Positions 13,209 to 27,562 of a stretch of DNA of 64,000 nt are shown piece by piece. Source of the stretch: a virus; IMG/VR virus record IMGVR_UViG_3300028578_000003, positions 1 through 64,000 of that record; one strand, 5' to 3'. The notes under the pieces are model-generated. The model did no database searches, was not told the origin of the DNA, and saw only the letters and a list, made by a program, of their open reading frames with translations. Positions within the stretch are counted from its first letter, which is position 1; each line of letters opens with the position of its first letter. Both the position numbers and the translations under genes were made by a program.

Positions 13209-13370
13209 TCATCGGCGGCGGCGGCCGCCGGTCAAGGCCACGGCCGCGATCAGGCCACCGACTATGAAGGCGACGCCGACGCCGACGCCGGTGATGATGG
13301 CGGCGCGGGCGGCCGGGATGAACAGCAGGACGATGACGGTGCCTACGGCCAGGCCGCGAAGCGCCTTCAC
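13209..13370 (-). CDS. 53-aa membrane protein (below the ORF-track cut-off)
   Basis: GTG overlapping the upstream TGA; MKALRGLAVGTVIVLLFIP...IITGVGVGVAFIVGGLIAAVALTGGRRRR. Confidence 0.55.
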   Translation of the reverse strand: MKALRGLAVGTVIVLLFIPAARAAIITGVGVGVAFIVGGLIAAVALTGGRRRR

Positions 13371-13993
13371 CGCGCGCCCCGGCGGCGGCCGGTCGGCCGG
13401 TTGTCCGGGTTCCGCCGGTCACCCTTGACGATCTTGCGGAAGTTGGTCCAGCTGTTGCCATGGCCCGGGCCCGTGTAGCCGAGCTCCAGCGCGGCGGCCA
13501 GTACCGCGCCGGGACCGGCGCCATGCTGCATCACCAGGCGGTTGGCGAGAACGTGGAGCGCCTGCTTGCCGGCGTCTTTGTCCTCGTTGTTCGCGACGCG
13601 GCACAGCCGGATCAGGTCGAACACCGCGGCGTCGCCGTACCGGCGGGCAAGCTCCAGCAGTTCGTCATCGGGGGGCCCGCCGTCGTCCGGGCCCGCGAGG
13701 ACCTTGATGAAGTTCGGGTACTCGGAATTCGTCCGAGACGTGTATGTGTAGCCCAGCCGGCGGGCGACCCGGCTACGCGCGACGGTCCAGGTGTCGCCGC
13801 TGGCCTCCTGCTCGGCGGTCACCATGCGCTGCGCGAGCAGGCTCAGCGTCACACCGCCAGGGTTGTTGCCGTTCTGGATCGTGCGGCACCGGCGGATCAA
13901 GTCGAACACCTGCTTGTCGCCGAGCACGTCGGCCAACGCGATGAGGCCGTCGACTCCGTCAGCGCGGCCGGGGAGCTCGCGGGGGGCCTGCAT
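13367..13993 (-). CDS. Tandem-duplicated-domain protein, candidate regulator
   Basis: Two internal repeats GD..VFDLIR.CR...LA.R.V....A..LGYT....NF.K; AGGAG RBS; directly downstream of an operator-embedded promoter. Confidence 0.7.
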   Translation of the reverse strand: MQAPRELPGRADGVDGLIALADVLGDKQVFDLIRRCRTIQNGNNPGGVTLSLLAQRMVTAEQEASGDTWTVARSRVARRLGYTYTSRTNSEYPNFIKVLAGPDDGGPPDDELLELARRYGDAAVFDLIRLCRVANNEDKDAGKQALHVLANRLVMQHGAGPGAVLAAALELGYTGPGHGNSWTNFRKIVKGDRRNPDNRPTGRRRGAR

Positions 13994-14026: not shown

Positions 14027-14069
14027 ACTGTAGTTGGGGTAACCCGATGCGTCAAGTTACCCCAACTAC
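14027..14069 (-). promoter_or_regulatory. sigma70-type promoter TTGACG-17-TACAGT with inverted pair of 14-bp operators
   Basis: -35 at 14050-14055, -10 at 14027-14032; GTAGTTGGGGTAAC at 14030-14043 and its complement at 14056-14069. Confidence 0.85.
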
Positions 14070-15367
14070 CGGGGGTTGGCCGCCAACGCGGCGTCGACCG
14101 CCGCCTCACAGTCGCGAAGGTCGAACAGTGCAGCAGACCGCACCGGCTTCGTCCACAAGATCCGGGCCCGGCCGAGCGCACACCGATACGAGTCCCCGAC
14201 GTCGCCGCACCTCCAACACATCACCACATCAGGGCCCTCGAAGTCCTCTTCCTCCGCACGCAGCGTCTTAACAGCGGCCAGCCCTAGCGCGCCGCGCGGG
14301 TCGTTGTCCCCGTCCGACCACGCCGGACCGCCGCAGCCGATGCATCTCCCGACGTACCGGATCACCCGCTGGCCCGCGAACCCGCTGTACATCTGCACCG
14401 GGTACGCGATCGCGTCCGCCGCGGTGAGCCTCGGCTCCGCCACCGCAACCGGCTCGCCGACCGCCGGTCGGTAAACGCTCGCCGCGTGCCGCCGAGGAGC
14501 GGACCGTGTACCACCGACCTGCTTGGTCGCGGCGATCACGCAGGTGCCGACGTCGGTGCCGGACTGCCGGAACGACCGGGCCGGCAACTCCTGCACCACC
14601 AGGTCCGGACCGAGCAGCTCGCGCAGCCGGACGGACTTGCGGTCCCGGCGGCCAGCGAAGCCGCCGGGCACGATCGCGACCAGGCGGCCGGCGAGCATCT
14701 CCCAGGCTAGGCGCACGTGGTCGATCCAGATCGTGGGGTTGCCCGGCACCGAGTACGGCGGGTTCATCACCACCAGGTCGTACAACTCTGCTCCCGGCTC
14801 CCGGCCACCGGCGAACCGCTCGAAGGTGCACACGTGCAGCGGGTAAACGCCGCCGATCTTCCCGACCTCGAAGGCGCGCTCGTCGACCGGCTCGACAGCT
14901 GTCACCCGCGCGCCCGGCACGGCGGCCAGCACGGCGCGGATCAGCGCACCCTCGCCAGCCGAGGGCTCGAGCACCCGGGGTTGGGCGGGCAGAGATCCCA
15001 GGTCGGCGAACCGCTGGACCACCGAGGTGGCCAGCGAGTCCGGCGTCGGCACCCAACCGACCGTCGTCCGCTCATGCTGAGGTGCCGGGCCGCCAGCGAT
15101 GAACGAGGCCAGGTCGGCGCGCCGGTCAACGTTGAACCGGTACGGCTGGCCCATCCGGCTACCGCCGGTCGCGCCCATCTGCTTAAGCATGGCGTGCAGC
15201 GACTGCCAGACCTGCCGCGCCAACGGCTCCCGCGGCAGCGCCAGCACCCGCTCGGCCAGCGACGACCGGGCCAGCACGACACGTACCTCATCCAGTCCAT
15301 CGCCGGCGGTGCCAGCGGCCGGCAGTTCGTCGATCAGCATCGACGTCACCTTTCTCTGGTTGGTCAT
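14066..15367 (-). CDS. N6-adenine DNA methyltransferase (gamma-type motif order)
   Basis: RVLEPSAGEG SAM-binding motif followed by DLVVMNPPY. Confidence 0.85.
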   Translation of the reverse strand: MTNQRKVTSMLIDELPAAGTAGDGLDEVRVVLARSSLAERVLALPREPLARQVWQSLHAMLKQMGATGGSRMGQPYRFNVDRRADLASFIAGGPAPQHERTTVGWVPTPDSLATSVVQRFADLGSLPAQPRVLEPSAGEGALIRAVLAAVPGARVTAVEPVDERAFEVGKIGGVYPLHVCTFERFAGGREPGAELYDLVVMNPPYSVPGNPTIWIDHVRLAWEMLAGRLVAIVPGGFAGRRDRKSVRLRELLGPDLVVQELPARSFRQSGTDVGTCVIAATKQVGGTRSAPRRHAASVYRPAVGEPVAVAEPRLTAADAIAYPVQMYSGFAGQRVIRYVGRCIGCGGPAWSDGDNDPRGALGLAAVKTLRAEEEDFEGPDVVMCWRCGDVGDSYRCALGRARILWTKPVRSAALFDLRDCEAAVDAALAANPR

Positions 15368-17751
15368 TGGCCGGCCAGAGCAGCTTCGACGGCAGGCCCG
15401 AGCGAGGACAGGTCAAACGTGGCGGGCCGGTCCTGCCTGTCGGGCGTCCAGTACGGACGCAGTGGACTCGACGTGCGACCGGCGCGGCACTTCGGCCACC
15501 GGTTCGGCTCGTCGCCCGCGCAGCAGTCATGGTTGATCTCCCACGCGTACCTGGTTATCTCCACCCCGCCGCAGTGGCAGCACACCAGCGCGGGCACGAC
15601 CTGACCCTTGACCAGGCCGCCTGGGGTGGTCCACGGCATCCGCACCGTGCCCTGCCAGTGCCGGTTCGTGGCCCGCCACGACACCTGCTCCGGGTCGTCG
15701 ATGTCCGCCCACATGGTGCTGGCGTACGACCGGGTCGTCGGCTCCCCCTCAACCAGCACGTCGACCTCGTAACGGCCACCCTCGCCGCGACGCGGGTCCG
15801 CCTGAACGTGGTAGCGCGGCCGCAGGTCACCCTTGCCGCCCCGGTCCAACCCTGGGTCGTTCCAGACGTGGAACACATCGCCCTTGCGCAGGTCCTCCAC
15901 CGGCATCCGCCGGGCCAGGCTCCGCCGCGCGGTCAGCGGCCGGTCAGCGGGCGCCTCCAGCACGGCGAAGGTCGCGCCCTCCTCAGCGAACATGTGCGTG
16001 CTCGATCCGCCGCTCTGCCCGGCCAGCGGCGGCTCGTCGACCGCGAAGTCCAGCAGCCGGTCACCCTCGCGCCTGTTCGGACCGTCGCCGCTGAAGCCGC
16101 GAGTGGTCACCCGCGGCGGCTTGGTGACATACCCACGAACGGTGCGGCGGTCACCGGTCGGCCCGTACCCCTTGACCTCGCCGTACATGCCCCACTGCGC
16201 GTCGACGAGCGGGATCACCCGCGGCGCCGACGACGTCAGCCCGAGACTCTTGGCGACCATCGCGCTGAACCCAGCCAGTCCGGTGAACAAGTCCGGTTGC
16301 GGCTCGTCGACCGGCCGGGACAGTACGACCGCGTCGGCGGGCGGAGGCTGCCCCACCAGGCTGCAGTTGTGCCGGCCGTGCTTGCCGACCGCGCCGTCGA
16401 TACGGACCGTCGCCCGCTTGGCGCAACTTGGGCAGCGGATCACCGTGCCAGCAGCCGCCGCGGCCTTCACATCCTCGGCGTCGACATCGCTGCCGGGTCC
16501 GCCGATCGTAGGGACGTGGTTCGGGGTGTTCGTGTCACCGCACTCCCCGCAGCGGGTTCGCTCATTGGTGAGCGGCACGAACAGGTGCGCGGTTCCCTTG
16601 TGGGCCTCGGCGAACAGCGGGTCGACGCTGCCCCGGCTGACGATCTCGAACCGGGGACCGTGGAACGCGTCCGTCTCGAACGGCTCACCCTCCTTCACGG
16701 TGATCCGGGCGACGGTAGGCCGCGCCGAAGACGCGACGGTGGAGGAGACGAACGTCAGCTGGCCACGCTCCGGGTGGACGAACACATCCCCGGCGCGCAG
16801 CGCCGCCGGGTACCGCATCGCCATCCGGTGAGGAGTACGTACCTTCGATGCCACGGTGGCCTCCTTAGGTGCGGGTAGCTGCCCGGTGCGGGCGATCCCG
16901 GCCAGGATCGCGAGCTGCTCCCCGATACTGGCGGTGCCGTCGAGCGGGCGGATGGCGTGCGGCCACACGGCGGTGACAACGTCGGCGTACGCCTTACCTG
17001 CCAGCACGATCACCTCAGTTGCGTCGTCCAGCCCGAACTGCTGCGCCTGGTAGGCGACCGTCTCGGCGGTGACGCTGCCCGGCTTACCCATCCGGAGGTC
17101 GTACGTCTCGACGACGGCGAACAGGTCCAGCAGCCCGTACCTCGCCGAAAGGATCATCTGGTAGGTGTCGACACCGTCACCGATGTCGAATCTGCCGGGC
17201 GACCGGCCGACCAACGCGTCGGCCGCACGACGGGCGGCCAGATGGTACGAGCCGACGTACATGGAGTGGGCGTCGCTGTGTTTCCTGGCGGCCTTCTTGT
17301 GGCCGCAGCCCACGATGACCAGCCGACGCGGCGGCGCGAACGTCGACGCGGTCGGCAGCGGCAGCCTGCCGGCGGCGTGCTCAAGGTGCTCCGCGATCGT
17401 CCACGACATCCACGCGAACCGCGGCCGCCACCGACCGGGCCCGCCGCGCCCATACGTGTACTCCCCGAACGGAGGCGGCCGGTCCAGCGGATCTATACCG
17501 TACGCCTCCGGATAGCCGGAGCGGCTGTCCAGCGTGAGCAGAGTGTTGTCCACCCGCCGCTCTCTGCCGCCGTCGCCGAACAGCACGACCTTCGTGGCCT
17601 TCGGGCCGACGGAGACGACGGCGCCCTGCCGCCACCTGTCCTCGGCCGAGGGCAGCGCGCCCGGCAGGCATGTCACCCGCGTGCCGGGCGGGATCTTCCC
17701 CGGCCCAGCGCCGAGCTTCCTGGCATGGGCGATCGTTGCTGGGGTGGCCAT
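15364..17751 (-). CDS. Large multidomain protein with DUF6884-like domain and Zn-knuckles
   Basis: LVIVGCGHKK...MYVGSYH...ILSARYGLL...TYDLRM...LAGKAY; CGEC, CPSC, CCHC; GAAGGAG RBS. Confidence 0.7.
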   Translation of the reverse strand: MATPATIAHARKLGAGPGKIPPGTRVTCLPGALPSAEDRWRQGAVVSVGPKATKVVLFGDGGRERRVDNTLLTLDSRSGYPEAYGIDPLDRPPPFGEYTYGRGGPGRWRPRFAWMSWTIAEHLEHAAGRLPLPTASTFAPPRRLVIVGCGHKKAARKHSDAHSMYVGSYHLAARRAADALVGRSPGRFDIGDGVDTYQMILSARYGLLDLFAVVETYDLRMGKPGSVTAETVAYQAQQFGLDDATEVIVLAGKAYADVVTAVWPHAIRPLDGTASIGEQLAILAGIARTGQLPAPKEATVASKVRTPHRMAMRYPAALRAGDVFVHPERGQLTFVSSTVASSARPTVARITVKEGEPFETDAFHGPRFEIVSRGSVDPLFAEAHKGTAHLFVPLTNERTRCGECGDTNTPNHVPTIGGPGSDVDAEDVKAAAAAGTVIRCPSCAKRATVRIDGAVGKHGRHNCSLVGQPPPADAVVLSRPVDEPQPDLFTGLAGFSAMVAKSLGLTSSAPRVIPLVDAQWGMYGEVKGYGPTGDRRTVRGYVTKPPRVTTRGFSGDGPNRREGDRLLDFAVDEPPLAGQSGGSSTHMFAEEGATFAVLEAPADRPLTARRSLARRMPVEDLRKGDVFHVWNDPGLDRGGKGDLRPRYHVQADPRRGEGGRYEVDVLVEGEPTTRSYASTMWADIDDPEQVSWRATNRHWQGTVRMPWTTPGGLVKGQVVPALVCCHCGGVEITRYAWEINHDCCAGDEPNRWPKCRAGRTSSPLRPYWTPDRQDRPATFDLSSLGPAVEAALAGQ

Positions 17752-18196
17752 CGACTCTGCCTCTCCTTCGTCTACTGGTCGGGGAATAGGCCGCCGCACC
17801 ACGGCAGGGTTCGACCCTCCGCGTCGGTCACCCGACGCCCGGTCACGCGTCCACACTCGACACACGCCGCACCGCCCGGCGGGTGCGGCGGCGGCCGGAA
17901 CTGTGGCAGGGCCTGCTGTTCCTGGCAGGCCGGGATGCTCGACGGGAACGGCGGCCTGCACTGCCGGTCCTGAGCCGGGTGCGGAATCCGACAGTTGTTT
18001 ATGATCTTCCCGGCCTTGCCGTTCTCACCCGGGATGAAGTGGCCCAGCCCGGCCGGGCCGAGGCAGCAGCCGCACGAGGCACCCATCGGGCACCCGCCGC
18101 GGGGGATGTGGACGGCCTTGCGCCGGTCCGGCGGGGCGAGCCGGCGCTCCGGCTCGCCGTCGTCTTCCGGGTCGGCCGTCAGCGGGTTCAACTGGC

Positions 18197-18658
18197 TCAC
18201 GTCACGTCCTCCGCGTCTGCCGTGCCAGCGGCCTCGGCGGCGGGATCGTCGAAGAGCAGGCCGTGCGCCAGCAGCAGCTCGGTCATCCGCTGCTCGCTCA
18301 CCCCCAGCTCGGCGGCGAGGCCGGCGATGTCACCGTGCCGGCCGTACCGCACGCGCTGGGCGGTCCTCTGGTCGCGGATCTTCACACCGCGTTTCATCAG
18401 CCGCCGCCGGATCGTCTCGGGCTCAACGCCGTACCGGCGGCCGAGCACGGGCAGACCATCGCCGCGCCGGTACTCCTTAGCCACCCGGTCCATCGGCAGA
18501 TTCGCTTCGACGCCACGCGCCCGCAACTGGACGCCCGCCGCCTCAAGCCATTCGCGGATCACCTCCGCTGACGTGCCATGCCGGCGGGCGATCACCGACG
18601 GGCTGTCGCCCGCCGCGTACTCGGCGATGATCGCCCTGATGTCCGGGCCTTCGTTCAT
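18197..18658 (-). CDS. Repeated-HTH DNA-binding protein
   Basis: EYAAGDSPSVIARRHGTS..VIREWL and EYRRGDGLPVLGRRYGVEPETIRRRL repeats. Confidence 0.8.
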   Translation of the reverse strand: MNEGPDIRAIIAEYAAGDSPSVIARRHGTSAEVIREWLEAAGVQLRARGVEANLPMDRVAKEYRRGDGLPVLGRRYGVEPETIRRRLMKRGVKIRDQRTAQRVRYGRHGDIAGLAAELGVSEQRMTELLLAHGLLFDDPAAEAAGTADAEDVT

Positions 18659-18702
18659 GTGGCGTTTCTCCGTTCGGTGAGGCGTGGTAAATGTCGCGTC
18701 GT

Positions 18703-19170
18703 TCAGTCGGCGGTGGCGGTGGGCTGGCCACGCCACGGGGTGTCCACTGTGGATGCCCCGGGGAGGACGGCCAGCACCTCGTCGACCTGCTCGTAGCAGC
18801 TGCGGCAGCACATGACGCCGCCGCTGATGGTGGCGGTCGCCAGGTGGCACTCGGTGAGGTAGACGAGGCCGGCGCAGCTGGATGTGTAGGGCAGCCGGCG
18901 TCGGTCGACCAGCGGCGGGTGCTCCGCCCAGATCGCGGCCAGCCCGATCAGCAACTGCTCGGCGGCCGGCTGGTCGAGCGGCTCGATCGTCTTGACCAGG
19001 TTCCGGATGGCCTGGCGTTGCTGCCGGCCTTGCTTCACCCAGTCCCATTCGGCGGCTTCGGTCTGGTCGGTGTCGGTGTCGGCGATCCCGCGGCGCTCGG
19101 CGTCGACGTCGAGCTCCAGGCGGGCGGTGATGTAGGCGATCAGGCCGGGGCGCTGGTCTGGTAGCAGCAT
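18703..19170 (-). CDS. Hypothetical protein
   Basis: GGAGGAGG RBS. Confidence 0.6.
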   Translation of the reverse strand: MLLPDQRPGLIAYITARLELDVDAERRGIADTDTDQTEAAEWDWVKQGRQQRQAIRNLVKTIEPLDQPAAEQLLIGLAAIWAEHPPLVDRRRLPYTSSCAGLVYLTECHLATATISGGVMCCRSCYEQVDEVLAVLPGASTVDTPWRGQPTATAD

Positions 19171-19195
19171 TGGTCGGCCTCCTCCCGTGGTCGGA

Positions 19196-19804
19196 TCAGG
19201 CGTTGGCCGGTTCAGGCCGCGGCACCGTGTAGTTCTTGGCGTTCGCGGTGGCCCACGTGTGCAAGTCGTCGTGGCCGGCGTCCATGGCGGCTTTCGCGGC
19301 GCGCTGCCAGGCAGCGCGCCGGTAGAGATCCTCGGCGCCGTACTCGCTGCGTCCGGTCCACTTGTGGGTGGTCAGGAAGGCGGCCGCCTGGTGGACGCTG
19401 TCGTCGTCGTGCCAGTCAGTCGACGACTGGGCGATCGTGTATCGGGTGTGCGCCTCGGCCTCATCCCAGCCGGCCGCCTCGAAGCCGCAGTGCGACATAT
19501 AGCCTTCTGGGTGCGCGACCTGTTCGCGCCATTCCAGCGGGTTGGACGCGTCGCTGCCAGGCTGCACCCAGAGCAGCCCGACATATCCGCGGAACGTGAT
19601 GACGACCGGTGGCTGGTAGGCACCGATGAACGCCTCCAGCGCGTTGGCGAGCGCGTTGGAGGCGGCTTTCTCGGTCGTCCCTTGGCTGCGCCAGTAGCCG
19701 GCCTCGACGGTCCAGTCCCGACCGCGGCCGGGCTCCCGGGTGGCGGTGGCGGCCACCGAGAGTCGAACAGGTCGCGGCTTAGTGGTCCATTCGTCTACTG
19801 CCAT
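19196..19804 (-). CDS. Hypothetical protein
   Basis: GGAGG RBS; protein-like composition. Confidence 0.65.
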   Translation of the reverse strand: MAVDEWTTKPRPVRLSVAATATREPGRGRDWTVEAGYWRSQGTTEKAASNALANALEAFIGAYQPPVVITFRGYVGLLWVQPGSDASNPLEWREQVAHPEGYMSHCGFEAAGWDEAEAHTRYTIAQSSTDWHDDDSVHQAAAFLTTHKWTGRSEYGAEDLYRRAAWQRAAKAAMDAGHDDLHTWATANAKNYTVPRPEPANA

Positions 19805-19947
19805 CTCTGGTTACCTCCACGTGGGGATAGGGTCGATTGAGGTTGGGTACGGGCGGGGCGTTGGCAGTAGCCGGCTTCGTACATGGCCGTGTTGAGTGCC
19901 CGCTCGACCTCGGCCATGTCGATCTGGGCTGTGGCGCCGCCGCTCAC
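19795..19947 (-). CDS. 50-aa peptide carrying the shared helix tag (IDMAEVERALNTAM)
   Basis: GTGA overlap with the upstream stop; fills the intergenic gap. Confidence 0.45.
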   Translation of the reverse strand: MSGGATAQIDMAEVERALNTAMYEAGYCQRPARTQPQSTLSPRGGNQRWQ

Positions 19948-20351
19948 CGGTCGTCCTCCCACACGGGGTAGGCGGCGTCGAAGTAGATGGATGCGGCGTT
20001 GCCGTACCCGTCGAGGTAGACGACGGCGTTGTCCAGCCCGATCGGTTCGCCGATCTCGGCCCGCGCGTGGACCAGCTCAACCCCGTAGATGGGCAAGGCC
20101 ATGATGTGCTCGGCGAGAGCGGCGACCAGCGACTTGCGTTTGTCCGCCGTGCGTGCGGTGGGGTACACCTTCTCCGCTTCGAGGACCGCCTCGATCGCCC
20201 ACTCCAGTGAGGCGGGGGCGACGATTTGCCTCGGCGGTTCGATCTTCGGCGGCGGCGGGTCAGGCTGGCGGGCTTCGGCCAGGGCGGCGTCGACCGCCGA
20301 GCCGAGCGCCGCCATGTCCAGGCCGGCCGGCGCCGTCATCGTCATGGGCAT
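19944..20351 (-). CDS. Hypothetical protein with N-terminal LDMAALGSAVDAAL tag
   Basis: ORF track; shared motif. Confidence 0.65.
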   Translation of the reverse strand: MPMTMTAPAGLDMAALGSAVDAALAEARQPDPPPPKIEPPRQIVAPASLEWAIEAVLEAEKVYPTARTADKRKSLVAALAEHIMALPIYGVELVHARAEIGEPIGLDNAVVYLDGYGNAASIYFDAAYPVWEDDR

Positions 20352-20358
20352 GTCGTTC

Positions 20359-20604
20359 TCACCGATCCCTCTTCGCCCGGCCCGCGTGGTAGTGGGGGCC
20401 GCGGGTGTGTGCGTACTGGTGGGCGACCAGCCAGGACAGCACCGGCCGTACTTCCTCGGTGGTGCGGCGCGTCAGCCGGGCGGCGGCCGCCGGGGTCAGC
20501 CCCCGGCGGCCGGCACGCTCCAGCACGGCCTCGATCACGGCGGCCAGACGGTCCTGCTCGTCGGTCAGCTCGGCGACCGTGGCCAGTTCCAGGAGGGCAG
20601 TCAT
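20359..20604 (-). CDS. Small winged-HTH protein
   Basis: GLTPAAAARLTRRTTEEVRPVLSWLV; GAGGAG RBS. Confidence 0.6.
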   Translation of the reverse strand: MTALLELATVAELTDEQDRLAAVIEAVLERAGRRGLTPAAAARLTRRTTEEVRPVLSWLVAHQYAHTRGPHYHAGRAKRDR

Positions 20605-20609
20605 GGTGG

Positions 20610-20855
20610 TCAACTCCTCGGCGGCCACGGACGCCGGACGCGGATGTTCTGGCCGTTCGGGTCGTAGTGCGCCCGGGTGGCCCTGTCCAGCGCCTGCGCG
20701 GCGGTGAGCCGGCCGTTGTGCGTGAAGCGGGGGTAGTGCGGATCGTTGCTCTGCCCCGGCTTCAGCAGCCCGCGGTCGGGACCGGTCAGGGAGGCGCACC
20801 GCAGGTCGTAGCGGACCCAGCGCAGGTAGCGGCGACGCTTGCGGGCGGTGCTCAC
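20610..20855 (-). CDS. Hypothetical protein
   Basis: GTGA coupling. Confidence 0.5.
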   Translation of the reverse strand: MSTARKRRRYLRWVRYDLRCASLTGPDRGLLKPGQSNDPHYPRFTHNGRLTAAQALDRATRAHYDPNGQNIRVRRPWPPRS

Positions 20856-21208
20856 GACAGCGCGCCAGGAACGTGGCGGGCCACGAACTCGCGGACCCGC
20901 TCGGCGATCCGCTCGAACAGCACGGAGATCGGCAACTCGTGGTCGATCTGCACGGGGTCACCTTCGGCGTCGTTGAGCGCGATGTACCAGCGCATGACCT
21001 TGTCGTCGCTTCGCAGGTGTGGGCTGACGCCGACCCGGCGGCCGTCCGGAAGGTTGAGCCACGTCACGTAGTCGCCGCCCGGAGAGCTGGCCTCCATGTA
21101 CCACGGCTCGCCGAGCTCCTTCTGGAGCGCCGCCCCCAGCACCGGGCTGAACTCGTGCCTCCGGTCGTAGATGTTGTTCGGGCCGGCGAGCGGAGGGTCG
21201 GTTTTCAT
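20852..21208 (-). CDS. Hypothetical protein
   Basis: AGGAGG RBS. Confidence 0.65.
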   Translation of the reverse strand: MKTDPPLAGPNNIYDRRHEFSPVLGAALQKELGEPWYMEASSPGGDYVTWLNLPDGRRVGVSPHLRSDDKVMRWYIALNDAEGDPVQIDHELPISVLFERIAERVREFVARHVPGALS

Positions 21209-21265
21209 CTGTGTGCCTCCTGGAGTGGGTGGGGACTCAGGTCGCGGTTTTGGCTCACCACCGGG

Positions 21266-21736
21266 TCACGTGGCCCTCTGGGCGGGGCCGACCCGCAGCA
21301 CGTGGCCCCCGCCGCCGCCGGCCAGGATCTTGTCGACTTCCTGGTTGCTGTGGAACCCACCCCAGGTGGAGCGCCACGCCGCGGTGGTGGACGGGTTGGT
21401 CTTGATGTAGGCGGCGTTGGAGGTGGCGACCACGCTCTGGTCGGGCAGGCACGCCGCTAGGGAGAACGTGCCCGTCTCCTCGTATTTCGCTGCGGCCGCC
21501 TTCGCCCCGTCAGGGGTGGCGTGGTGACCGAGGTCGACCTCTCCGTGCGTGTGGCCGTGCCGGTCAACGCCGATGAGCATCAGGTGCCACGGCGCCGCGC
21601 GGTTGTCCGGACCGTACGGGCGGAAGCGGTCCTCCTGAAGCCAGTAGTACGCGTTGGTCATGCCGTCGGGGACGCGGTGGCTGCTGGCCGCTCGGGTGTC
21701 GTCGTCGTTGCCGGTCCAGGTCAGGGCAGTGGGCAT
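21266..21736 (-). CDS. Hypothetical protein
   Basis: GGAG RBS before MPTALTW. Confidence 0.6.
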   Translation of the reverse strand: MPTALTWTGNDDDTRAASSHRVPDGMTNAYYWLQEDRFRPYGPDNRAAPWHLMLIGVDRHGHTHGEVDLGHHATPDGAKAAAAKYEETGTFSLAACLPDQSVVATSNAAYIKTNPSTTAAWRSTWGGFHSNQEVDKILAGGGGGHVLRVGPAQRAT

Positions 21737-21764
21737 GCTGTATCTCCAGGGTGTGGGGTGTGGG

Positions 21765-23849
21765 TCAGACCAGTTCGAACTTGGGGATCTCAACCCCGGT
21801 GACGCCCTCCATCAGGCAGGCGACCAGGTCACGGGCAGAGCAGCGGGTGACGGCGTTGCCGAGCATCCGAACCTTGTCCCGCTTGGCTTTGCCGAGCAGC
21901 ACGTAGCCGCTGGAGAAGTCCATGCCGGCCTGGATCTCGGCGACGGCGAGCATCCGCAGTGTGCAGTCGTCGACGTCGACGGCGGTGCCGACCAGTGCGT
22001 CACCGTCCACAGTGGTCTGTGCCGGGATCGGCTCGTCCAGTGGCCGCATGATGCCTGTGTCGTAGGCGTAGAGCACGTGGTCCCAGCGGATCAGCGACTG
22101 CCCGCCTTCGGTGGTGAAGGTGCGCAGCGGCTCGTTGGGGCGGTAGCTCATTTGGCCCTGGTCACCGCGGGCGGTGTTGTTGCGCATCACCATCGCCGCG
22201 TCGGCCGGCAGGCCGATCAGCGACTGGTGCCCGGCGGTGGTCAGGGTCCGGATCGGCTCCCCGGCGGGCGTGCACATCTCCGCGCCGCCGTGGTTGTTGC
22301 GCATTACGAGGGCGTGGTGCTCGCCGCCGGCGGCGACCGTCTTGAACGGGTGGGTGGGTGGGGTGGCGACGCCGTTGTTGCGCAGTGGCACCACGAGGGC
22401 GTCCTGGTGGCGGGTGGTCTGCGCCCGCATCGGGTCGTTAGCGGGGCGGGCGAAGACACCGTCGCGGCCTTCCAGCGGCACGACCAGCGCGGTGTTCTCC
22501 CGGGTGGTGCAGGTCCGCATCGGCCCTTCGACCGTCGACGCGTCGTCGTTCCAGGTGCCGCCGGTCGGCACGAGCATCTCCGGGCCGACCGCGATGCTCT
22601 TGCTCAGCGTCGTGTGTTGGGTGCCCAGCGGCCGGTCGACCGGCCAGGACCTCACGCCGGGCCGCCGCTCGAAGGTGTGCCCTGAGGTCTCGACCACGAC
22701 CGGCTGGCAGTAGCGCTCCAGGCCGGCGGCGATGCGGGCGCGGGTCTTCGCGGCGAGTGGCCGCTTGCGGTCGCCGATCCGCTCGGCGGGCAGGGACCAG
22801 TCGATCGCGGAGGCGGCCGGCAGGACCAGCGGGTGGACCATCTGGCCGGCGCACGCCTTGGCGGGGCAGCGGTATGTGTACTGGGCCCGTGGGCCGTACC
22901 GCATCGGCCGCAACTTGCCCGGCTTGGGGTTGTAGATGCCGTCCACGACGTCGCCGCAGGAGGGGCAGGACGACTTGGGCCGCAGCCACTTGTTCCAGTC
23001 CGGGGTCTTGTAGATCGCCTTCCAGAAGATGATGTAGACGCGGTCCCGCAGTTGCGGCGCCGGCATACCGGTGGCCTGGGCGAACGCCGAATTCAGGGTA
23101 ATGATCTTCCAGCGGTAGCCCTCTGCCTCCATCTCGCGGAGCATGCGGGGCAGGGCGGCCCACTTGAGGATGTCGGGGACGTTCTCGACGATGATGCCCT
23201 TGTACTGGTGGTGACGGGCGAACCGGACCACGTCGGTCATCAGCATCCGGGACCGCCAGCGCGCTTCTCGCGCCTCGGGCGTCTCCGGGTCGCCTTCCAT
23301 CACGTCCAGCGCGAGCTGCTCGCTCTGCAGGTCGTAGTCGCAGGCCTCACCCCTGGCCACAGACCAGTACGTGCACTCCGGTGAGAACCAGGCGAAGTCC
23401 GTGCGCGGGTACCGCTTCGGGTCGGTGCGGGCGACGTTGGCGACGTCGTGGTCGGTGTCGGGGTGGTTGAAGTTGTGCGTCTCGATCGCGAGGGGCCAGT
23501 GATTCACGGCCATCCGCACGCCGGCGCCGGGCACTTCTCCGATCCCCGACGATGACCCGCCGGCGCCGGCGAAGAAGTCCGACCAGGTCGCCTCGACACC
23601 GTCCGGTGCCGAGCGGGTCGGCAGCACCCGCGGCAGCGAGCGGCGCAGCTCGGTGAGCGTGTCACCGCAGTCCCACACCTGGATCGGTTTGGTCGGGTGA
23701 TACGGCGTCGTCACCGTGAACAGGTGCGGCGCCTTCCGGGTCATCCCCTGGTGCAGCGCTTCCATGTCGACCGGTCCGGGCGGCGCCGTGTCGGTGGCGA
23801 GGGCTGCGTCGACGGCCTTGCCCATGGCGTTCATGTCGAGCACGGTCAC
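21765..23849 (-). CDS. C5-cytosine DNA methyltransferase
   Basis: DFFAGAGG (motif I), SPEC (IV), ENV (VI), QLRDR (VIII), LGNAV (X). Confidence 0.95.
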   Translation of the reverse strand: MTVLDMNAMGKAVDAALATDTAPPGPVDMEALHQGMTRKAPHLFTVTTPYHPTKPIQVWDCGDTLTELRRSLPRVLPTRSAPDGVEATWSDFFAGAGGSSSGIGEVPGAGVRMAVNHWPLAIETHNFNHPDTDHDVANVARTDPKRYPRTDFAWFSPECTYWSVARGEACDYDLQSEQLALDVMEGDPETPEAREARWRSRMLMTDVVRFARHHQYKGIIVENVPDILKWAALPRMLREMEAEGYRWKIITLNSAFAQATGMPAPQLRDRVYIIFWKAIYKTPDWNKWLRPKSSCPSCGDVVDGIYNPKPGKLRPMRYGPRAQYTYRCPAKACAGQMVHPLVLPAASAIDWSLPAERIGDRKRPLAAKTRARIAAGLERYCQPVVVETSGHTFERRPGVRSWPVDRPLGTQHTTLSKSIAVGPEMLVPTGGTWNDDASTVEGPMRTCTTRENTALVVPLEGRDGVFARPANDPMRAQTTRHQDALVVPLRNNGVATPPTHPFKTVAAGGEHHALVMRNNHGGAEMCTPAGEPIRTLTTAGHQSLIGLPADAAMVMRNNTARGDQGQMSYRPNEPLRTFTTEGGQSLIRWDHVLYAYDTGIMRPLDEPIPAQTTVDGDALVGTAVDVDDCTLRMLAVAEIQAGMDFSSGYVLLGKAKRDKVRMLGNAVTRCSARDLVACLMEGVTGVEIPKFELV

Positions 23850-24133
23850 GGGTTACCTCCGGGGATCTCGGCGGGCACGGCGACCCGACGCTTGAGCTTG
23901 CGGCGCTCACCTGCGGACAGACCGCCCCAGACGCCGAACCGCTCGTCGTGGCCGAGCGCGTATGCCAGGCATTCGGTCGTGACCTCGCAGCGGGCGCAGA
24001 TGCGTTTGGCCTCGCGGGGCGATCTGCCCTTCTCCGGGAAGAACGCCTCCGGGTCGGTTTGTTGGCACAGCGCCCGCTCTTGCCATTCGGGTGTGTCGCC
24101 GATCAGGTCGGCGACCTTTAGCGGACCGTCCAT
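23846..24133 (-). CDS. whiB: WhiB-family Fe-S transcription factor (WhiB2-like)
   Basis: WQERALC..TDPEAFFPEKG...AKRICARCEV..ECL.YAL..DERFGVWGGLS. Confidence 0.95.
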   Translation of the reverse strand: MDGPLKVADLIGDTPEWQERALCQQTDPEAFFPEKGRSPREAKRICARCEVTTECLAYALGHDERFGVWGGLSAGERRKLKRRVAVPAEIPGGNP

Positions 24134-24234
24134 GGTGCGCCCTCCATGCCGTCGTAGGTTTCCCCGACCGTGTGTAAATCCTATACACGCAGACGCGGAT
24201 TTATAAGGGGTTGGTGTCAGATACAGGGGATAGA

Positions 24235-24282
24235 ACCGGACAGGGCCGGGCCTGCCTTTCCGCAGGCCCGGCCCTGTCCGGG
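24235..24282 (-). terminator. Long hairpin, probable terminator upstream of whiB
   Basis: ccggacagggccgggcctgc...gcaggcccggccctgtccgg perfect inverted repeat just after the 24296 stop. Confidence 0.65.
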
Positions 24283-24295
24283 AGGGGTGTACGTA

Positions 24296-25198
24296 CTACC
24301 AGTGGTCGGGGTGGGCGGGGTGGTTGTAGTCGTTGTCCACCGCCGCGGCCGCCGCACCGTGCGCCGAGTACGGCACCCCGTCGTCGACGACCTTGCCCTC
24401 GATCACCATGCTGCCCGCCAGCCACAGCGCGACCCGCTCGGCGACCTCGATCTGCCGCTCCGACAGCTCGGGCCGGTGCGGGGCGGCGTCGCGGTACTCG
24501 ACCAGGGTGGCCAGCGCCGTCTCGATGTCGGCGGTGGTGAGCCCGACCACCCCGCTGGTACGGACCGCCCGGGTTCGGGCGGCGACGTCGTCGATCCGCT
24601 CGGCCAACACGGTCAGGGCGAGCTCGGCGGCCTCGTAGCCGGGGATCACCTCGTGCTCGCCGGGGATGAGCTCACGCTCGGTGATCCGACCCAGCGACAC
24701 GGGGATCTGGTCGACGACGACCTCGCCGGCGATGCCGCCGTCCGGGCCGCCCGCCGGGTCAGCGGTCGCCCACACCTTGAGCTGTGTGACGCCCCCGTCG
24801 AGCCGCCAGCCCGACTGCCCGTGCCAGTCGGCGTCGTGCAGCATGGACAGCACGCCCTCGACCAGCCAGCCGCCGGCGCCGTCGAGGCGTTGGTAGGCGG
24901 TCGCCAACGGCTCGACGTCCCGGATCTTCCCCTGCCCGGTGTCGCCGTCCAGCCAGGCCCGGAACGCGTCGACGTTGAAGGTGGCGGCCGGGTGACCCGG
25001 CTCGCCCGCGAATCCCACCACCATGCGCTGGCCGAGGGCGAGCAGCGCGGCGCGGCTGCCGTAGATGACTGCCTTGTCGTCCAGGCCAGCGGCGACCGCG
25101 TACTGGTCCTCGCCCAGCTCCTGCCCTTCGTCGCCGTCGAACTCGTAGCCGGGCGCGAACAAGCCCGCCTCGGTGGCCCTGCCCCACACGTGGGTCAT
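24296..25198 (-). CDS. Acidic hypothetical protein
   Basis: GGAGAG RBS before MTHVWG. Confidence 0.65.
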   Translation of the reverse strand: MTHVWGRATEAGLFAPGYEFDGDEGQELGEDQYAVAAGLDDKAVIYGSRAALLALGQRMVVGFAGEPGHPAATFNVDAFRAWLDGDTGQGKIRDVEPLATAYQRLDGAGGWLVEGVLSMLHDADWHGQSGWRLDGGVTQLKVWATADPAGGPDGGIAGEVVVDQIPVSLGRITERELIPGEHEVIPGYEAAELALTVLAERIDDVAARTRAVRTSGVVGLTTADIETALATLVEYRDAAPHRPELSERQIEVAERVALWLAGSMVIEGKVVDDGVPYSAHGAAAAAVDNDYNHPAHPDHW

Positions 25199-25243
25199 GG
25201 TGCTCTCCGTTCGTTCCGGTAAGTGGCCGGCTGAGTTGCCGGG

Positions 25244-25299
25244 ACCACTCAGCGATCCGCCCGCCTCACCGGGGGTGGGCGGGCGGATCACTGGGCGGC
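25244..25299 (-). repeat. Conserved intergenic stem-loop, copy 1 of 8
   Basis: Minus strand GCCCAGUG-stem-CGCUGAGUGG; related copies near 28579, 29571, 35821, 37224, 38101, 39071, 39685. Confidence 0.75.
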
Positions 25300-25304
25300 A
25301 CCGA

Positions 25305-25757
25305 TCAGGCGCCGCTGTCACCTGCGGCATGGCGCTGCCGGGCATGCCAGTCGATGATCGCGAGGCGGCGTTGGCCGGCGGCGACCGCCTCACGCCTGGT
25401 CTTGTGCCATGTCGCCCGCCTGCCCGGCAGGCCCATACGCCAGGTCCCGTGGAACGAGGGGGCGGTCTTGTCGACCTGGATCCTCGGGTCTTTCGGGTGC
25501 GCCAGCGTGGTGTTGGCCGGCGCGACCATCTCCGGCTGGCAGAGCACGGTCATGCCGCCCTTGCCGCGACCCACCACGTAGACCAGGCCGTTCGAGGTCG
25601 CGGCGTGCTCGTCCACGCCGCCGTACTCGACCGGCCTCTCCAGATCCCAGGACAGGACCAGGGCGCCGACCTCGATCCCGGATGAGGGCGTGTCCGGGTC
25701 CGCCGGCGTCATGGCCGCGTCAACGGCCACCCCCAGGGCCGCCATGTCGAGTTGCAT
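25305..25757 (-). CDS. Hypothetical protein with N-terminal LDMAALGVAVDAAM tag
   Basis: ORF track; GAGG RBS. Confidence 0.65.
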   Translation of the reverse strand: MQLDMAALGVAVDAAMTPADPDTPSSGIEVGALVLSWDLERPVEYGGVDEHAATSNGLVYVVGRGKGGMTVLCQPEMVAPANTTLAHPKDPRIQVDKTAPSFHGTWRMGLPGRRATWHKTRREAVAAGQRRLAIIDWHARQRHAAGDSGA

Positions 25758-25793
25758 CGTTGCCTCGCTCTCTTTGTCGGGGGCCGGCGCCGA

Positions 25794-26429
25794 TCAGTCG
25801 TTGTCGTTCGGCGCGGTGTGCTCGCTGCTGCACGGGCGGGGGTCGCCGTACTGGCCGTCGGCGTCGATTTCGGTCCAGACGCCGCAGTACTCGCCGTCGA
25901 CCGTGTGCAGGCACCGGCCCTCGTTCTCCCGGGGGTCGACCACGATGTCGTCGAGGTCGACGAGCACCGAGGGGGCGGTCGGGTCGTCCGGCAGGTAGAT
26001 CAGCCCGTGCCGGGCGAGGATGTGCGGGTAGGCGACGATGTCGGCGGCGTTGAAGACCCGCCCGGTGACCTTGGCGTCGCGCCACGGCTCGGGGTCCGCG
26101 CAGAAGTCGTCGACAGCCGCCTCCCATGCCTCGGCGAAGTTGGTCACCGTGTCGTCCAGCAGGAACCGCCACCGGCCGGCGTTGCTCTCGGCGGTCGTAC
26201 GGTCGGGGGTGTTGTAGTCGACGTACCCGTACCGCTCGGTGCCGCCGCCCAGCAGTTGCACGGCGAGCCTGGCGGCGATCCGAGCATGCTCGTCAGCCTG
26301 CTCACGGACTTCGCCCTCGGCGTTTTCGTGGCCGGTCGCGTTGGCCTCATCGCACAGGTCGCTGGCCTCGTCGTCGAGGCGCTCCATGGCGGCAAGGGCG
26401 GCGCGGAACTTCTGCAGAAGGTCGGTCAT
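25794..26429 (-). CDS. Hypothetical protein
   Basis: ATGA overlap; GAGGAG RBS. Confidence 0.65.
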   Translation of the reverse strand: MTDLLQKFRAALAAMERLDDEASDLCDEANATGHENAEGEVREQADEHARIAARLAVQLLGGGTERYGYVDYNTPDRTTAESNAGRWRFLLDDTVTNFAEAWEAAVDDFCADPEPWRDAKVTGRVFNAADIVAYPHILARHGLIYLPDDPTAPSVLVDLDDIVVDPRENEGRCLHTVDGEYCGVWTEIDADGQYGDPRPCSSEHTAPNDND

Positions 26430-27562
26430 GTGCTCCTCGATCCGTTGGCGGCCTCGATGGCGGGGAGGACCTCGGCGAGGATCCGCGCCATCGTGAACCG
26501 CAGGGCGTGGCGGTTGGCGTCGCCGCCGTAGAAGCGGCGGCCGTCTTGTAGGCAGGTGATCGGTGTGGTGCCCGACCCGGTGAACGGGTCGCAGACCAGG
26601 TCGTCGGGGTTCGTGGTGGACCGGACCACCCGGGACACCAGCGGGACCGGCAACGCGTTGTCGTAGCGCAGCAGCCCGCGCCGCCGCTCCTGCGGGATGT
26701 CGCTCCACACGTCGGTCGCGTAGATCTCGCCGTTGCGGCCGCGGGGCATCTCTTCTGGGCGGTGGAACGTGCGGTGCTTGGAGTCGAGCGGCCCGTTGGT
26801 CAGCAGGGTGATCGTGTGGTGCTGGTGGACGTACCGGCGTGTGGTGTAGAGCCCGAACTGGCGCTCCCACACGATGCTGTTGACGTAGGTCAGACCGACG
26901 TCCTCGGCGGTGACTTGTACCCGGGCGGCCTGTTGGGCGCCGGTGATGATGGCCAGGTAGCCGCCCGGCCGGATCGCGTCCTTGGCCGCCTGCACCCAGC
27001 TGGCGGTGAAGTCGGCGTACCGGCCGGGGTCGACCTCCACATACCCGGGCACGACCCGGGCGTGGTCGCGGCGGTAGGTGCGCCGATACGCGGCGCGGGG
27101 GTCGCCTCGGTACAAAGCCCACGGCGGATCGGCGACGATCAGGTCGATCGGCTCGCCGCACCGGGCCAGGACCTCGGTCGCCGCGCCGAGCACGAGCTCG
27201 ATCTGCGCCTTGTCGTTGGGCAGCCACACGAACAGCGCCCGGGTGGGCCGCTCGACACTGCCCTCGATCAGCCACGCCCCACCCTCGCGCGGCGCCCAGC
27301 CGTGCCGGTGCGCCGCGTACAGCGCGGACCGTACCCGCCGTTTGTACTGCTCCCGCCCGTCTTGGATGCGTTTGCGACCGCCGGGCCGGTCGGCCAGCCC
27401 GACCCGCTCGGCGATCCGGTAAAGCTGAGGCATGGTGAAGGTGCCGCCGCCGCGTAGCGCCCGGATCATGTCCGCCTCGGTCTTGAGGGGTTTGAGCCGG
27501 GCGAGCCGGGCGACGGCCGCGTCGACGGCCGCCTCCAGCGCGCCCATGTCCAGGTCGAGCAT
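26426..27562 (-). CDS. Beta-class N4/N6 DNA methyltransferase with N-terminal winged-helix (Mrr_N-like) region
   Basis: IDLIVADPPW precedes LVCDPFTGSGTT; N-terminal QYKRRVRSAL..GAWLI segment. Confidence 0.88.
   Translation of the reverse strand: MLDLDMGALEAAVDAAVARLARLKPLKTEADMIRALRGGGTFTMPQLYRIAERVGLADRPGGRKRIQDGREQYKRRVRSALYAAHRHGWAPREGGAWLIEGSVERPTRALFVWLPNDKAQIELVLGAATEVLARCGEPIDLIVADPPWALYRGDPRAAYRRTYRRDHARVVPGYVEVDPGRYADFTASWVQAAKDAIRPGGYLAIITGAQQAARVQVTAEDVGLTYVNSIVWERQFGLYTTRRYVHQHHTITLLTNGPLDSKHRTFHRPEEMPRGRNGEIYATDVWSDIPQERRRGLLRYDNALPVPLVSRVVRSTTNPDDLVCDPFTGSGTTPITCLQDGRRFYGGDANRHALRFTMARILAEVLPAIEAANGSRST

What the first reader, a model, noticed from the sequence alone, without database searches (positions are those of the whole stretch)
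14066..27562. Shared 14-residue terminal helix tag (LDMxALxxAVDAAL) on unrelated proteins, including three DNA methyltransferases
Seen at N-termini: LDMAALGSAVDAAL (19944-20351), LDMNAMGKAVDAAL (C5 MTase), LDMAALGVAVDAAM (25305-25757), LDMGALEAAVDAAV (beta MTase), IDMAEVERALNTAM (19795-19947). Seen at C-termini: FDLRDCEAAVDAAL (N6 MTase) and FDLSSLGPAVEAAL (15364-17751). Weaker matches lie outside this span, at the end of the DarB-like protein (MVMGNLEEEVAAGI) and in 5269-5859 (LDMSALLAIIDA). Third codon positions differ between copies, so conservation is at the protein level. Inference: a portable amphipathic docking motif. It could recruit DNA-modifying enzymes to a common hub (replisome or phage partner protein), or target them for capsid loading and co-injection, analogous to the T4 capsid-targeting sequence or P1 Dar proteins.
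Basis: partly seen in the sequence, partly recalled or inferred. Interest (0 to 1): 0.82.

Follow-up and report, generated by a model that had tools for sequence, protein, structure and literature searches.

The report
Clamp-docking tags on DNA-modifying enzymes
A 163-kb Micromonospora-type phage-like element puts the same short helical peptide on the ends of nearly all its DNA-modifying enzymes; relatives carry the classic sliding-clamp-binding peptide at the same ends, so the enzymes probably ride the host replication clamp to modify new DNA as it is made, although binding has not been shown.

Summary
Seven copies of a ~14-residue peptide ([LIF]-D-[LM]-x-x-[LM]-x-x-A-[VL]-[DE]-A-A-[LM]) sit at the ends of otherwise unrelated proteins between 14 and 28 kb. 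The pattern occurs nowhere else in six frames of the 163-kb record. It is far above shuffled controls and is conserved at the protein level, not the DNA level.

The carriers are the element's DNA-modification set:
- C5, N6 and beta-class methyltransferases
- a DpdA-like protein
- the 5' remnant of a Mom-like gene
- two small proteins

In relatives, the same enzymes carry at the same ends either this tag or the classic beta-sliding-clamp-binding peptide (QLxLF / QLxLxL). This holds for 44 of 112 beta-methyltransferase, 46 of 120 DpdA and 24 of 150 Mom homologues. The peptide is N- or C-terminal, never both, and intermediates exist (QLxFDL plus a helix).

I read the tag as a diverged clamp-binding motif with a helical extension. 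It would tether the modification enzymes to host DnaN on newly replicated DNA. The element has no clamp or polymerase of its own.

Binding is not shown; one structure-prediction test gave no verdict. Capsid targeting is not supported. This scan noted similar clamp-docking tails on DNA-modifying enzymes in other phages (unchecked AI notes).

The parts
26426..27562 (-). Beta-class N4/N6 DNA methyltransferase (378 aa). The tag is residues 1-17 (27512-27562).
   Evidence: PF01555, E 3e-25. The N-terminus aligns residue for residue with homologues that start M-D-Q-L-A-F-D-L plus a helix. Most homologues lack this extension and carry a C-terminal QLxLF instead.
25305..25757 (-). 150-aa protein of unknown function. 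The tag is residues 2-16 (25710-25754), followed by a Pro/Asp-rich linker.
   Evidence: Untagged homologues in L010 and L012 show that tag plus linker (residues 2-20) is an add-on. No Pfam or PHROG hit.
21765..23849 (-). C5 DNA methyltransferase (694 aa). The tag is residues 4-17 (23799-23840). A second half-motif V-D-M-E-A-L lies at 23742-23771. A kin-specific internal loop with Q-L-A-L-D-V-M lies at 23289-23324.
   Evidence: PF00145 and phrog_116. Homologues in cultured phages match only from residue ~105, so the N-terminal extension is an add-on. The internal insert is present only in kin and is absent from L011, Gordonia phage Yeet412 and Che9c.
19944..20351 (-). 135-aa protein of unknown function. 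The tag is residues 11-24 (20280-20321), followed by a Pro-rich linker. In kin it lies directly upstream of the Mom-like gene.
   Evidence: Orthologues in L004, L005, L007 and L010 keep an N-terminal tag. The AF2 model has low confidence (pLDDT 53) and shows a helix at 13-27 and an uncertain linker.
19795..19962 (-). 55-aa ORF that is the 5' remnant of a Mom-like gene. The tag is at 19882-19923 and the conserved Y-E-x-G-Y-C-Q-R follows it.
   Evidence: DNA alignment with the intact Mom-like gene of L004 (PF25680) is good only for about the first 25 codons after the tag and then diverges. Mom-like proteins of L004, L005, L007, L010, L011 and L012 all carry an N-terminal tag or a canonical QxSLF.
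15364..17751 (-). DpdA-like / DUF6884 protein (795 aa). The C-terminal tag is at 15376-15417. An internal Q-P-D-L-F plus degenerate helix lies at 16240-16299, at a domain junction.
   Evidence: PF21818. The L004 orthologue is annotated PF23859 DpdA and keeps the C-terminal tag. The C-terminal ~290 aa are fused to the N6 methyltransferase in P0003-P0005, where the junction peptide becomes an N-terminal tag.
14066..15367 (-). N6 adenine methyltransferase (433 aa) with a Cys-rich C-terminal module. The C-terminal tag A-L-F-D-L plus helix is at 14084-14128, five residues from the stop codon.
   Evidence: PHROG DNA methyltransferase hits. Five homologues at 49-77% identity keep the C-terminal tag and more distant ones lack it. 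The L011 homologue ends in E-Q-L-A-L-F-P-Q.
30905..30946 (-). Possible weak copy (I-D-L-G-E-F...) 36 residues from the C-terminus of the 1620-aa DarB-like helicase (30833-35695).
   Evidence: ResIII/Helicase_C domains only, with no methyltransferase domain. The segment is homologous to A-D-L-P-D-F-T-G-A-V in the L010 helicase tail. The motif HMM does not find it significant.

Best explanation
The tag is a diverged beta-sliding-clamp (DnaN) binding motif. It consists of the hydrophobic-Asp-hydrophobic core of the hexapeptide class (QLx-Phi-x-Phi) followed by a short N-capped amphipathic helix. It is joined by flexible linkers to whichever end of the enzyme is free.

The element has no clamp or replicative polymerase of its own, so host Pol III replicates it and leaves DnaN rings on its new DNA. 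The tagged enzymes are three methyltransferases, a DpdA-like 7-deazaguanine enzyme, a Mom-like enzyme in relatives, and two small partners. They would dock into the clamp's hydrophobic cleft and so be concentrated on freshly made, unmodified DNA. This would make protective modification replication-coupled.

Shown here:
- the motif, its terminal position and its add-on nature
- protein-level selection on it
- its positional equivalence to canonical clamp-binding peptides in orthologues

Inferred:
- that the window's diverged form still binds DnaN
- that tethering improves modification
For: 1. Significance and terminal position.

2. The carriers are the DNA-modification enzymes.

3. Beta-methyltransferase family, 112 near-full-length homologues. 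A strict QLxLF/QLxLxL pattern is C-terminal in 36 (mostly E-Q-L-[AT]-L-F-D) and N-terminal in 8, never both. Those with an N-terminal tag have short plain C-termini. The window's M-L-D-L-D-M plus helix aligns column for column with Q-L-A-F-D-L plus helix.

4. Kin locus L011 has canonical motifs on an MTS methyltransferase (C-terminal QLALF), Mom (N-terminal QGSLF), an Eco57I-like methyltransferase (N-terminal QLLLDL), the beta methyltransferase (N-terminal QLAFDL) and a 312-aa protein (C-terminal QLDLW). An island in the Micromonospora aurantiaca chromosome has QLSLF on Mom and QLTLF on both the beta methyltransferase and DpdA.

5. DpdA homologues: 45 C-terminal and 1 N-terminal of 120. Mom-family representatives: 16 N-terminal and 8 C-terminal of 150, none with both. 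The background is about 1% of proteins in this genome. Terminal against interior enrichment in L010-L012 gives Fisher p = 1.6e-4.

6. Helix-type tails with the same 1-3-6-10-14 hydrophobic spacing, often directly preceded by Q-L, occur at C-termini of other beta methyltransferases and on a DpdA.

7. No DnaN domains and no Pol A, B or C families were found in the record, which CheckV rates 100% complete.

8. The consensus QL(S/D)LF is the published bacterial clamp-binding motif (PMC9690074). QESLF is the clamp-binding motif of M. smegmatis DinB1 (PMC9346131).
Against: Most of the window's own tags have lost the Q-L part of the consensus, so they do not match the published motif. The strict pattern is not enriched at termini in this genome.

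The well conserved A-V-D-A-A-L helix is not needed for the known cleft interaction. All tags within one genome share a style (AVDAAL here and in L004, AL-x-A-x-Q in L007, canonical in L011 and L012). That could mean the partner differs between lineages.

The motif patterns were fixed after seeing the data. The homologue sets come from length-limited searches.
Confidence: 0.6

Rival explanations
1. In this lineage the helix-type tag has switched partner. It would dock on an element-encoded hub, or let the modification enzymes assemble with each other through helix-helix packing, rather than binding DnaN. Candidate hubs are the DarB-like helicase and the conserved 208-aa all-helical protein downstream of the N6 methyltransferase.
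For: The helix (A-V-D-A-A-L) is as conserved as the core, and the Q-L part is lost. Tags co-vary in style within a genome. The 208-aa protein is present in all five helix-type loci and was not seen in the L011 or L012 stretches. The N6 methyltransferase resembles the methyltransferase segment of giant methyltransferase-helicase proteins, while the helicase here lacks one.
Against: Intermediates carry both the Q-L-x-Phi-D-Phi core and the helix in one peptide, which argues for one partner. The co-occurrence rests on a few partial contigs. The 208-aa protein sits behind its own promoter and has no recognisable peptide-binding fold.
Confidence: 0.22
2. The tag is a packaging or transfer signal. 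It would load the enzymes into the capsid for co-injection (as with the T4 capsid-targeting sequence or the P1 Dar proteins), or mark them for conjugative transfer.
For: A DarB-like helicase is encoded nearby.
Against: The tag works at N- or C-termini. Equivalent motifs sit on the same enzyme families in a chromosomal island bearing integrase genes and across many actinobacterial genomes. SAM- or preQ0-dependent modification of incoming DNA would come too late to protect it (established knowledge). No prohead-protease-type processing site is evident.
Confidence: 0.06
3. The tag is a degradation signal that limits the lifetime of potentially toxic modification enzymes.
For: It is a terminal, exposed, Ala-rich peptide on early-operon proteins.
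Against: Known ClpX or ssrA-type degrons are end-specific and need the free terminus. This tag lies 3-10 residues from either end and also occurs internally at a domain junction. Its relatives are canonical clamp-binding motifs.
Confidence: 0.05
4. It is a chance resemblance of Ala-rich sequence in a 70% G+C genome, or a DNA-level repeat at gene boundaries.
For: The genome is rich in Ala codons. All copies lie near gene starts or ends.
Against: Shuffles give 0.003 windows expected against 5 observed. Third codon positions differ and the flanks are unrelated. Orthologues keep the tag.
Confidence: 0.01

Closest known systems
Bacterial beta-clamp-binding motif clients (pentapeptide QL[S/D]LF, hexapeptide QLxLxL; for example Hda at the N-terminus, Pol II/Pol IV at the C-terminus, M. 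smegmatis DinB1 QESLF)
   Same: It is a short portable peptide on a flexible tether at either terminus of unrelated DNA-handling proteins. Orthologues of the window's enzymes carry exact QLxLF or QLxLxL peptides at the same ends, never at both ends. The window's core Phi-D-Phi aligns with positions 4-6 of the hexapeptide.
   Different: Most of the window's copies lack Q1 and L2 and add a conserved 10-residue amphipathic helix. The clients are DNA-modification enzymes (methyltransferases, DpdA, Mom). I found no paper in the held library describing these as clamp clients. Binding is untested.
Eukaryotic DNMT1-PCNA coupling through a PIP box
   Same: A DNA methyltransferase is tethered to the sliding clamp so that newly replicated DNA is modified (PMC9690074). 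This is the same logic as proposed here.
   Different: The clamp differs (PCNA), the motif differs (Qxx[IL]xxFF), and the purpose is maintenance methylation. Here a whole set of anti-restriction modification enzymes of a mobile element would use the host's bacterial clamp.
Phage Mu MuC, a phage protein that uses the host beta clamp (PMC12867686, seen, abstract only)
   Same: A phage-encoded protein carries a clamp-binding motif to exploit host clamps on phage DNA.
   Different: MuC is a transcription activator, not a modification enzyme. It is a single client, not a tagged enzyme set.
T4 capsid-targeting sequence and P1 Dar internal proteins
   Same: A short shared terminal peptide on unrelated phage proteins, with a DarB-like helicase nearby.
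   Different: Those signals are N-terminal and tied to prohead assembly and processing. This tag is at either end, and its relatives occur in non-viral islands and are canonical clamp-binding peptides.

Membership tests
beta-clamp-binding motif (CBM) clients | Peptide matching the published consensus QL[S/D]LF or QLxLxL | tested here: not met
   None of the window's seven tags matches the strict pattern at a terminus. Only the Phi-D-Phi core (positions 4-6) is kept. The beta methyltransferase reads M-L-D-L-D-M. Internal Q-P-D-L-F (16240-16299) and Q-L-A-L-D-V (23289-23324) do match. I therefore file it as 'derived from / works like a CBM', not as a proven member.
beta-clamp-binding motif (CBM) clients | Positional equivalence to canonical CBMs in orthologous proteins | tested here: met
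   Beta methyltransferase, N6/MTS methyltransferase, DpdA and Mom orthologues carry QLxLF or QLxLxL at the same termini. The counts are 44/112, 46/120 and 24/150, never at both ends, with intermediates.
beta-clamp-binding motif (CBM) clients | Location at a terminus or in a flexible loop, as an add-on to the catalytic fold | tested here: met
   The tags lie within 24 residues of the N-terminus or 5 of the C-terminus and are flanked by Pro-rich linkers. They are absent from more distant homologues.
beta-clamp-binding motif (CBM) clients | Physical binding in the hydrophobic cleft between DnaN domains II and III | not testable with these tools
   This needs a binding assay or a reliable complex model with the host's own DnaN.
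Capsid-targeting / Dar-type packaged proteins | N-terminal signal tied to prohead assembly, with the cargo found in virions | tested here: inconclusive
   The tag occurs at both termini and internally, and its equivalents sit in a chromosomal island with integrases. This argues against, but virion content cannot be tested here.
ssrA/ClpX-type terminal degrons | Recognition of the extreme free terminus (for example a C-terminal L-A-A) | tested here: not met
   The tags are followed by 3-5 further residues at C-termini and preceded by 1-10 residues at N-termini. The end residues are not conserved.

The most novel reading that the evidence does not exclude
The helix-type tag (Phi-D-Phi-xx-Phi-xxx-Phi-xxx-Phi) is a previously undescribed class of beta-clamp ligand that evolved from the hexapeptide motif. 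A family of ~160-kb Micromonospora phage-like elements uses it to hang a whole toolbelt of at least six DNA-modifying proteins on the host clamp. This would be a prokaryotic counterpart of DNMT1-PCNA used for anti-restriction.
Probability: 0.4. Interest if true: 0.75.

Novelty: new variant of a known kind. Interest (0 to 1): 0.62.

Why it matters
If the tags bind DnaN, protective DNA modification in these mobile elements is coupled to replication by a simple portable peptide. That would explain how a large element can fully modify its DNA with several unrelated enzymes before restriction enzymes see it.

It would add methyltransferases, DpdA-type 7-deazaguanine enzymes and Mom-type enzymes to the list of bacterial clamp clients. 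It would also give a sequence rule (terminal QLxLF, or the helical variant) for spotting such enzymes, and an easily testable system using peptide binding, tag deletion and long-read modification mapping.

The diverged helical form could also reveal a new way of engaging the clamp, or a hub switch.

Tried and rejected
Approaches that led nowhere:
- Complex prediction of S. coelicolor DnaN (two copies) with residues 1-50 of the 135-aa protein gave no verdict (score 0.01, controls not run). This is no evidence either way.
- Megablast of 14-28 kb against phages and plasmids found no match.
- A degenerate DNA pattern for the tag found no hit in IMG/VR.
- Locus searches with the 150-aa protein and with the 208-aa family found nothing in the viral or GTDB genome collections, and only L008 again in JGI metagenomes.
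- DnaN could not be fetched from the M. aurantiaca genome because it is not held.
- The AF2 model of the 135-aa protein has too low confidence (pLDDT 53) for fold searching.
- The 208-aa protein folds confidently (pLDDT 82), but Foldseek and VIA-align found no informative PDB match (best Z 4.6).

Ideas considered and rejected:
- A DNA-level boundary repeat or regulatory site. Third codon positions differ and the flanks are unrelated.
- The Met inside L-D-M being the true start codon. Kin have Leu there, with in-frame starts upstream, and C-terminal copies keep the preceding residues.
- An element-encoded clamp or polymerase. None was detected.
- The two weak outside matches as members. They are not significant.
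Full report
**What the window is**

The window is the first 64 kb of a single 163,217-bp virus record with 70% G+C. It has siphovirus-type structural genes; the major capsid protein is about 42% identical to those of Arthrobacter phages. It has no close relative among deposited phages or plasmids. Homologues of its beta-class methyltransferase and of DpdA lie on 120-250-kb contigs of Micromonospora isolates and Micromonosporaceae MAGs, so the host is probably Micromonospora or a relative.

The region 14-42 kb is one long minus-strand operon. An earlier unchecked note calls the element a phage-plasmid. I checked only that it has no sliding clamp and no family A, B or C DNA polymerase.

**The observation**

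A pattern derived from them finds nothing else in six frames of the whole record.

As a less circular test, I scanned 203 predicted proteins with one copy as a BLOSUM62 probe. Five windows scored at least 40, against 0.003 expected from 300 per-protein shuffles. A small HMM separates true copies (10.7-28 bits) from noise (at most 6.7 bits) in this genome and in related contigs.

Identity between copies is lowest at third codon positions (0.50, against 0.69 and 0.82), and the flanks are unrelated. The conservation therefore acts on the peptide.

The tags lie 1-10 residues from an N-terminus or 3-5 from a C-terminus. Most are joined to the domain by Pro-rich linkers. The pattern hydrophobic-Asp-hydrophobic-x-x-hydrophobic fits an N-capped helix with a hydrophobic staple (my inference). 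A low-confidence AF2 model puts a helix at residues 13-27 of the 135-aa protein.

**Who carries the tag**

The carriers are:
- a beta-class N4/N6 methyltransferase (PF01555)
- a C5 methyltransferase (PF00145)
- an N6 methyltransferase (PHROG methyltransferase families)
- a DUF6884/DpdA-like protein
- two small proteins with no family

The seventh copy heads a 55-aa ORF. This ORF is the leftover 5' end of a Mom-like gene. It aligns with the intact Mom gene (PF25680) of a 77%-identical relative only through the tag and the next ~25 codons, after which an unrelated gene follows. The tagged set is therefore the element's DNA-modification arsenal plus two likely partners.

**Relatives keep the tag, and it is an add-on**

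- *N6 methyltransferase.* Five homologues at 49-77% identity keep a C-terminal tag; more distant ones end without it.
- *Contig L004.* The C5 methyltransferase, the 135-aa orthologue, Mom, the DpdA-like protein and the N6 methyltransferase are all tagged at the same ends.
- *L005 and L007.* These more distant loci tag the Mom gene, the protein upstream of it and the N6 methyltransferase, in a slightly different house style.
- *C5 methyltransferase.* Homologues in cultured Gordonia and Mycobacterium phages match only from residue ~105.
- *150-aa protein.* Untagged homologues lack exactly residues 2-20.

**The link to the sliding clamp**

Among 112 near-full-length homologues of the beta methyltransferase, most start directly at the conserved core.
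- 36 have a C-terminal tail with an exact QLxLF-type peptide, mostly E-Q-L-[AT]-L-F-D.
- 8 have an N-terminal Q-L-x-[FLI]-D-[LFW] followed by a helix.
- None has both, and those with the N-terminal form have short plain C-termini.

The window's M-L-D-L-D-M plus helix aligns column for column with M-D-Q-L-A-F-D-L plus helix in one of these homologues.

Two further loci show the same thing across families:
- Kin contig L011 has QLALF at the C-terminus of the N6/MTS methyltransferase, QGSLF at the N-terminus of Mom, QLLLDL at the N-terminus of an Eco57I-like methyltransferase, QLAFDL on the beta methyltransferase and QLDLW near the C-terminus of a 312-aa protein.
- An island in the M. aurantiaca chromosome has QLSLF at the N-terminus of a Mom-integrase fusion, and QLTLF at the C-termini of the beta methyltransferase and of DpdA.

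Independent family surveys agree:
- DpdA: 45 of 120 homologues have a strict C-terminal match and 1 has an N-terminal match.
- Mom: 16 of 150 representatives are N-terminal and 8 are C-terminal, none both.
- Background: the same kind of pattern occurs at the termini of about 1% of this genome's proteins.
- In L010-L012 the pattern is sevenfold enriched at termini (p = 1.6e-4), always on modification enzymes or unknowns.

QL(S/D)LF is the published bacterial clamp-binding motif (PMC9690074). QESLF is the clamp-binding motif of mycobacterial DinB1 (PMC9346131).

Helix-type tails with the same 1-3-6-10-14 hydrophobic spacing as the window's tag, often directly preceded by Q-L, also occur at C-termini of other beta methyltransferases and on a DpdA homologue. 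There is therefore a continuum from the canonical peptide to the window's form.

**Most likely mechanism**

The element relies on the host replisome, so host DnaN rings are loaded on its DNA. A clamp-binding peptide on each modification enzyme would concentrate them on newly replicated DNA. It would also let several share one ring, in the manner of known clamp clients and of DNMT1 on PCNA. This would speed complete modification before restriction.

I put 0.6 on this reading for the window's diverged tags. The reading is stronger for the canonical tails of relatives.

Shown here: the motif, its significance and terminal position, its add-on nature, protein-level selection, and positional equivalence to canonical motifs. 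Inferred: binding of the diverged form, and its benefit.

**Doubts and rivals**

The window's tags have mostly lost the Q-L half and do not meet the published consensus. Their helix is as conserved as the core. All tags within a genome share a style. These points would also fit a partner switch to an element-encoded hub, or tag-tag assembly (0.22).

One lead for that rival is a conserved 208-aa all-helical protein encoded just downstream of the N6 methyltransferase. It is present in all five helix-type loci and was not seen in the canonical-type stretches. The sampling is thin, and its fold matches nothing informative.

Capsid loading or transfer (0.06) and a degron (0.05) fit poorly with use at either terminus and with the canonical relatives in a chromosomal island. 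Chance is excluded.

**Extra copies in the window**

- The C5 methyltransferase has a second half-motif at 23742-23771. It also has a kin-specific internal insert with Q-L-A-L-D-V-M at 23289-23324.
- The DpdA-like protein has Q-P-D-L-F plus a degenerate helix at the junction with its C-terminal domain (16240-16299). In relatives, that same domain is fused to the N6 methyltransferase and the junction peptide becomes an N-terminal tag.
- The DarB-like helicase has a weak copy near its C-terminus that is shared with its L010 homologue.

**Novelty**

Clamp-binding motifs are well known. Four searches of the held library found no paper describing them on bacterial or phage methyltransferases, DpdA or Mom. 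That is not proof of absence.

Earlier AI notes of this scan report clamp-docking tails on DNA-modifying enzymes in three other large phages. I read them only after reaching this interpretation. They agree with it but are not independent evidence. I class the finding as a new variant of a known kind.

Noticed in passing
window 19196-19962: The Mom-like gene is reduced to its first ~35 codons (55-aa ORF 19795-19962). Its body is replaced by an unrelated 186-202-aa gene (19196-19804) that has no family hit and no homologue in the kin loci.
   Followed up: partly
window 13367-13993: A 208-aa protein made of two homologous halves sits directly downstream of the tagged N6 methyltransferase in five loci (window, L004, L005, L007, L008). 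AF2 gives pLDDT 82, all helical, with no informative PDB match.
   Followed up: partly
window 15364-17751; proteins P0003-P0005: Domain shuffling: the C-terminal ~290 residues of the DpdA-like protein are fused to the N-terminus of the N6 methyltransferase in three relatives. Tag-like peptides sit at each module boundary.
   Followed up: partly
window 23289-23324: A ~10-residue acidic insert with Q-L-x-L-D-[VL]-M lies between catalytic motifs of the C5 methyltransferase. It is present only in this group of elements and is absent from Gordonia and Mycobacterium phage homologues. It may be an internal clamp-binding loop.
   Followed up: partly
window 30833-35695 and 14066-15367: The DarB-like protein has helicase domains but no methyltransferase domain. 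The separate N6 methyltransferase matches the methyltransferase segment of giant PHROG proteins (1,259-3,925-position profiles). This looks like a split version of a methyltransferase-helicase fusion.
   Followed up: no
It directly precedes a TTGAC box upstream of the 208-aa gene.
   Followed up: no
proteins P0023, P0025, P0035, P0052, P0074, P0079, P0142: Homologous beta methyltransferase and DpdA genes lie on 150-180-kb contigs of Micromonospora isolates and MAGs (P0052 and P0142 are on contigs of the same length, 179,760 bp). This suggests a widespread family of ~160-kb elements and points to Micromonospora as host.
   Followed up: no
L010 12643-13656: A PAPS-reductase-like (DndC-like) protein in a relative starts with ...E-T-L-T-L-F-G-P, a clamp-motif-like N-terminus. 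This hints that further kinds of DNA-modifying enzymes are tagged.
   Followed up: no
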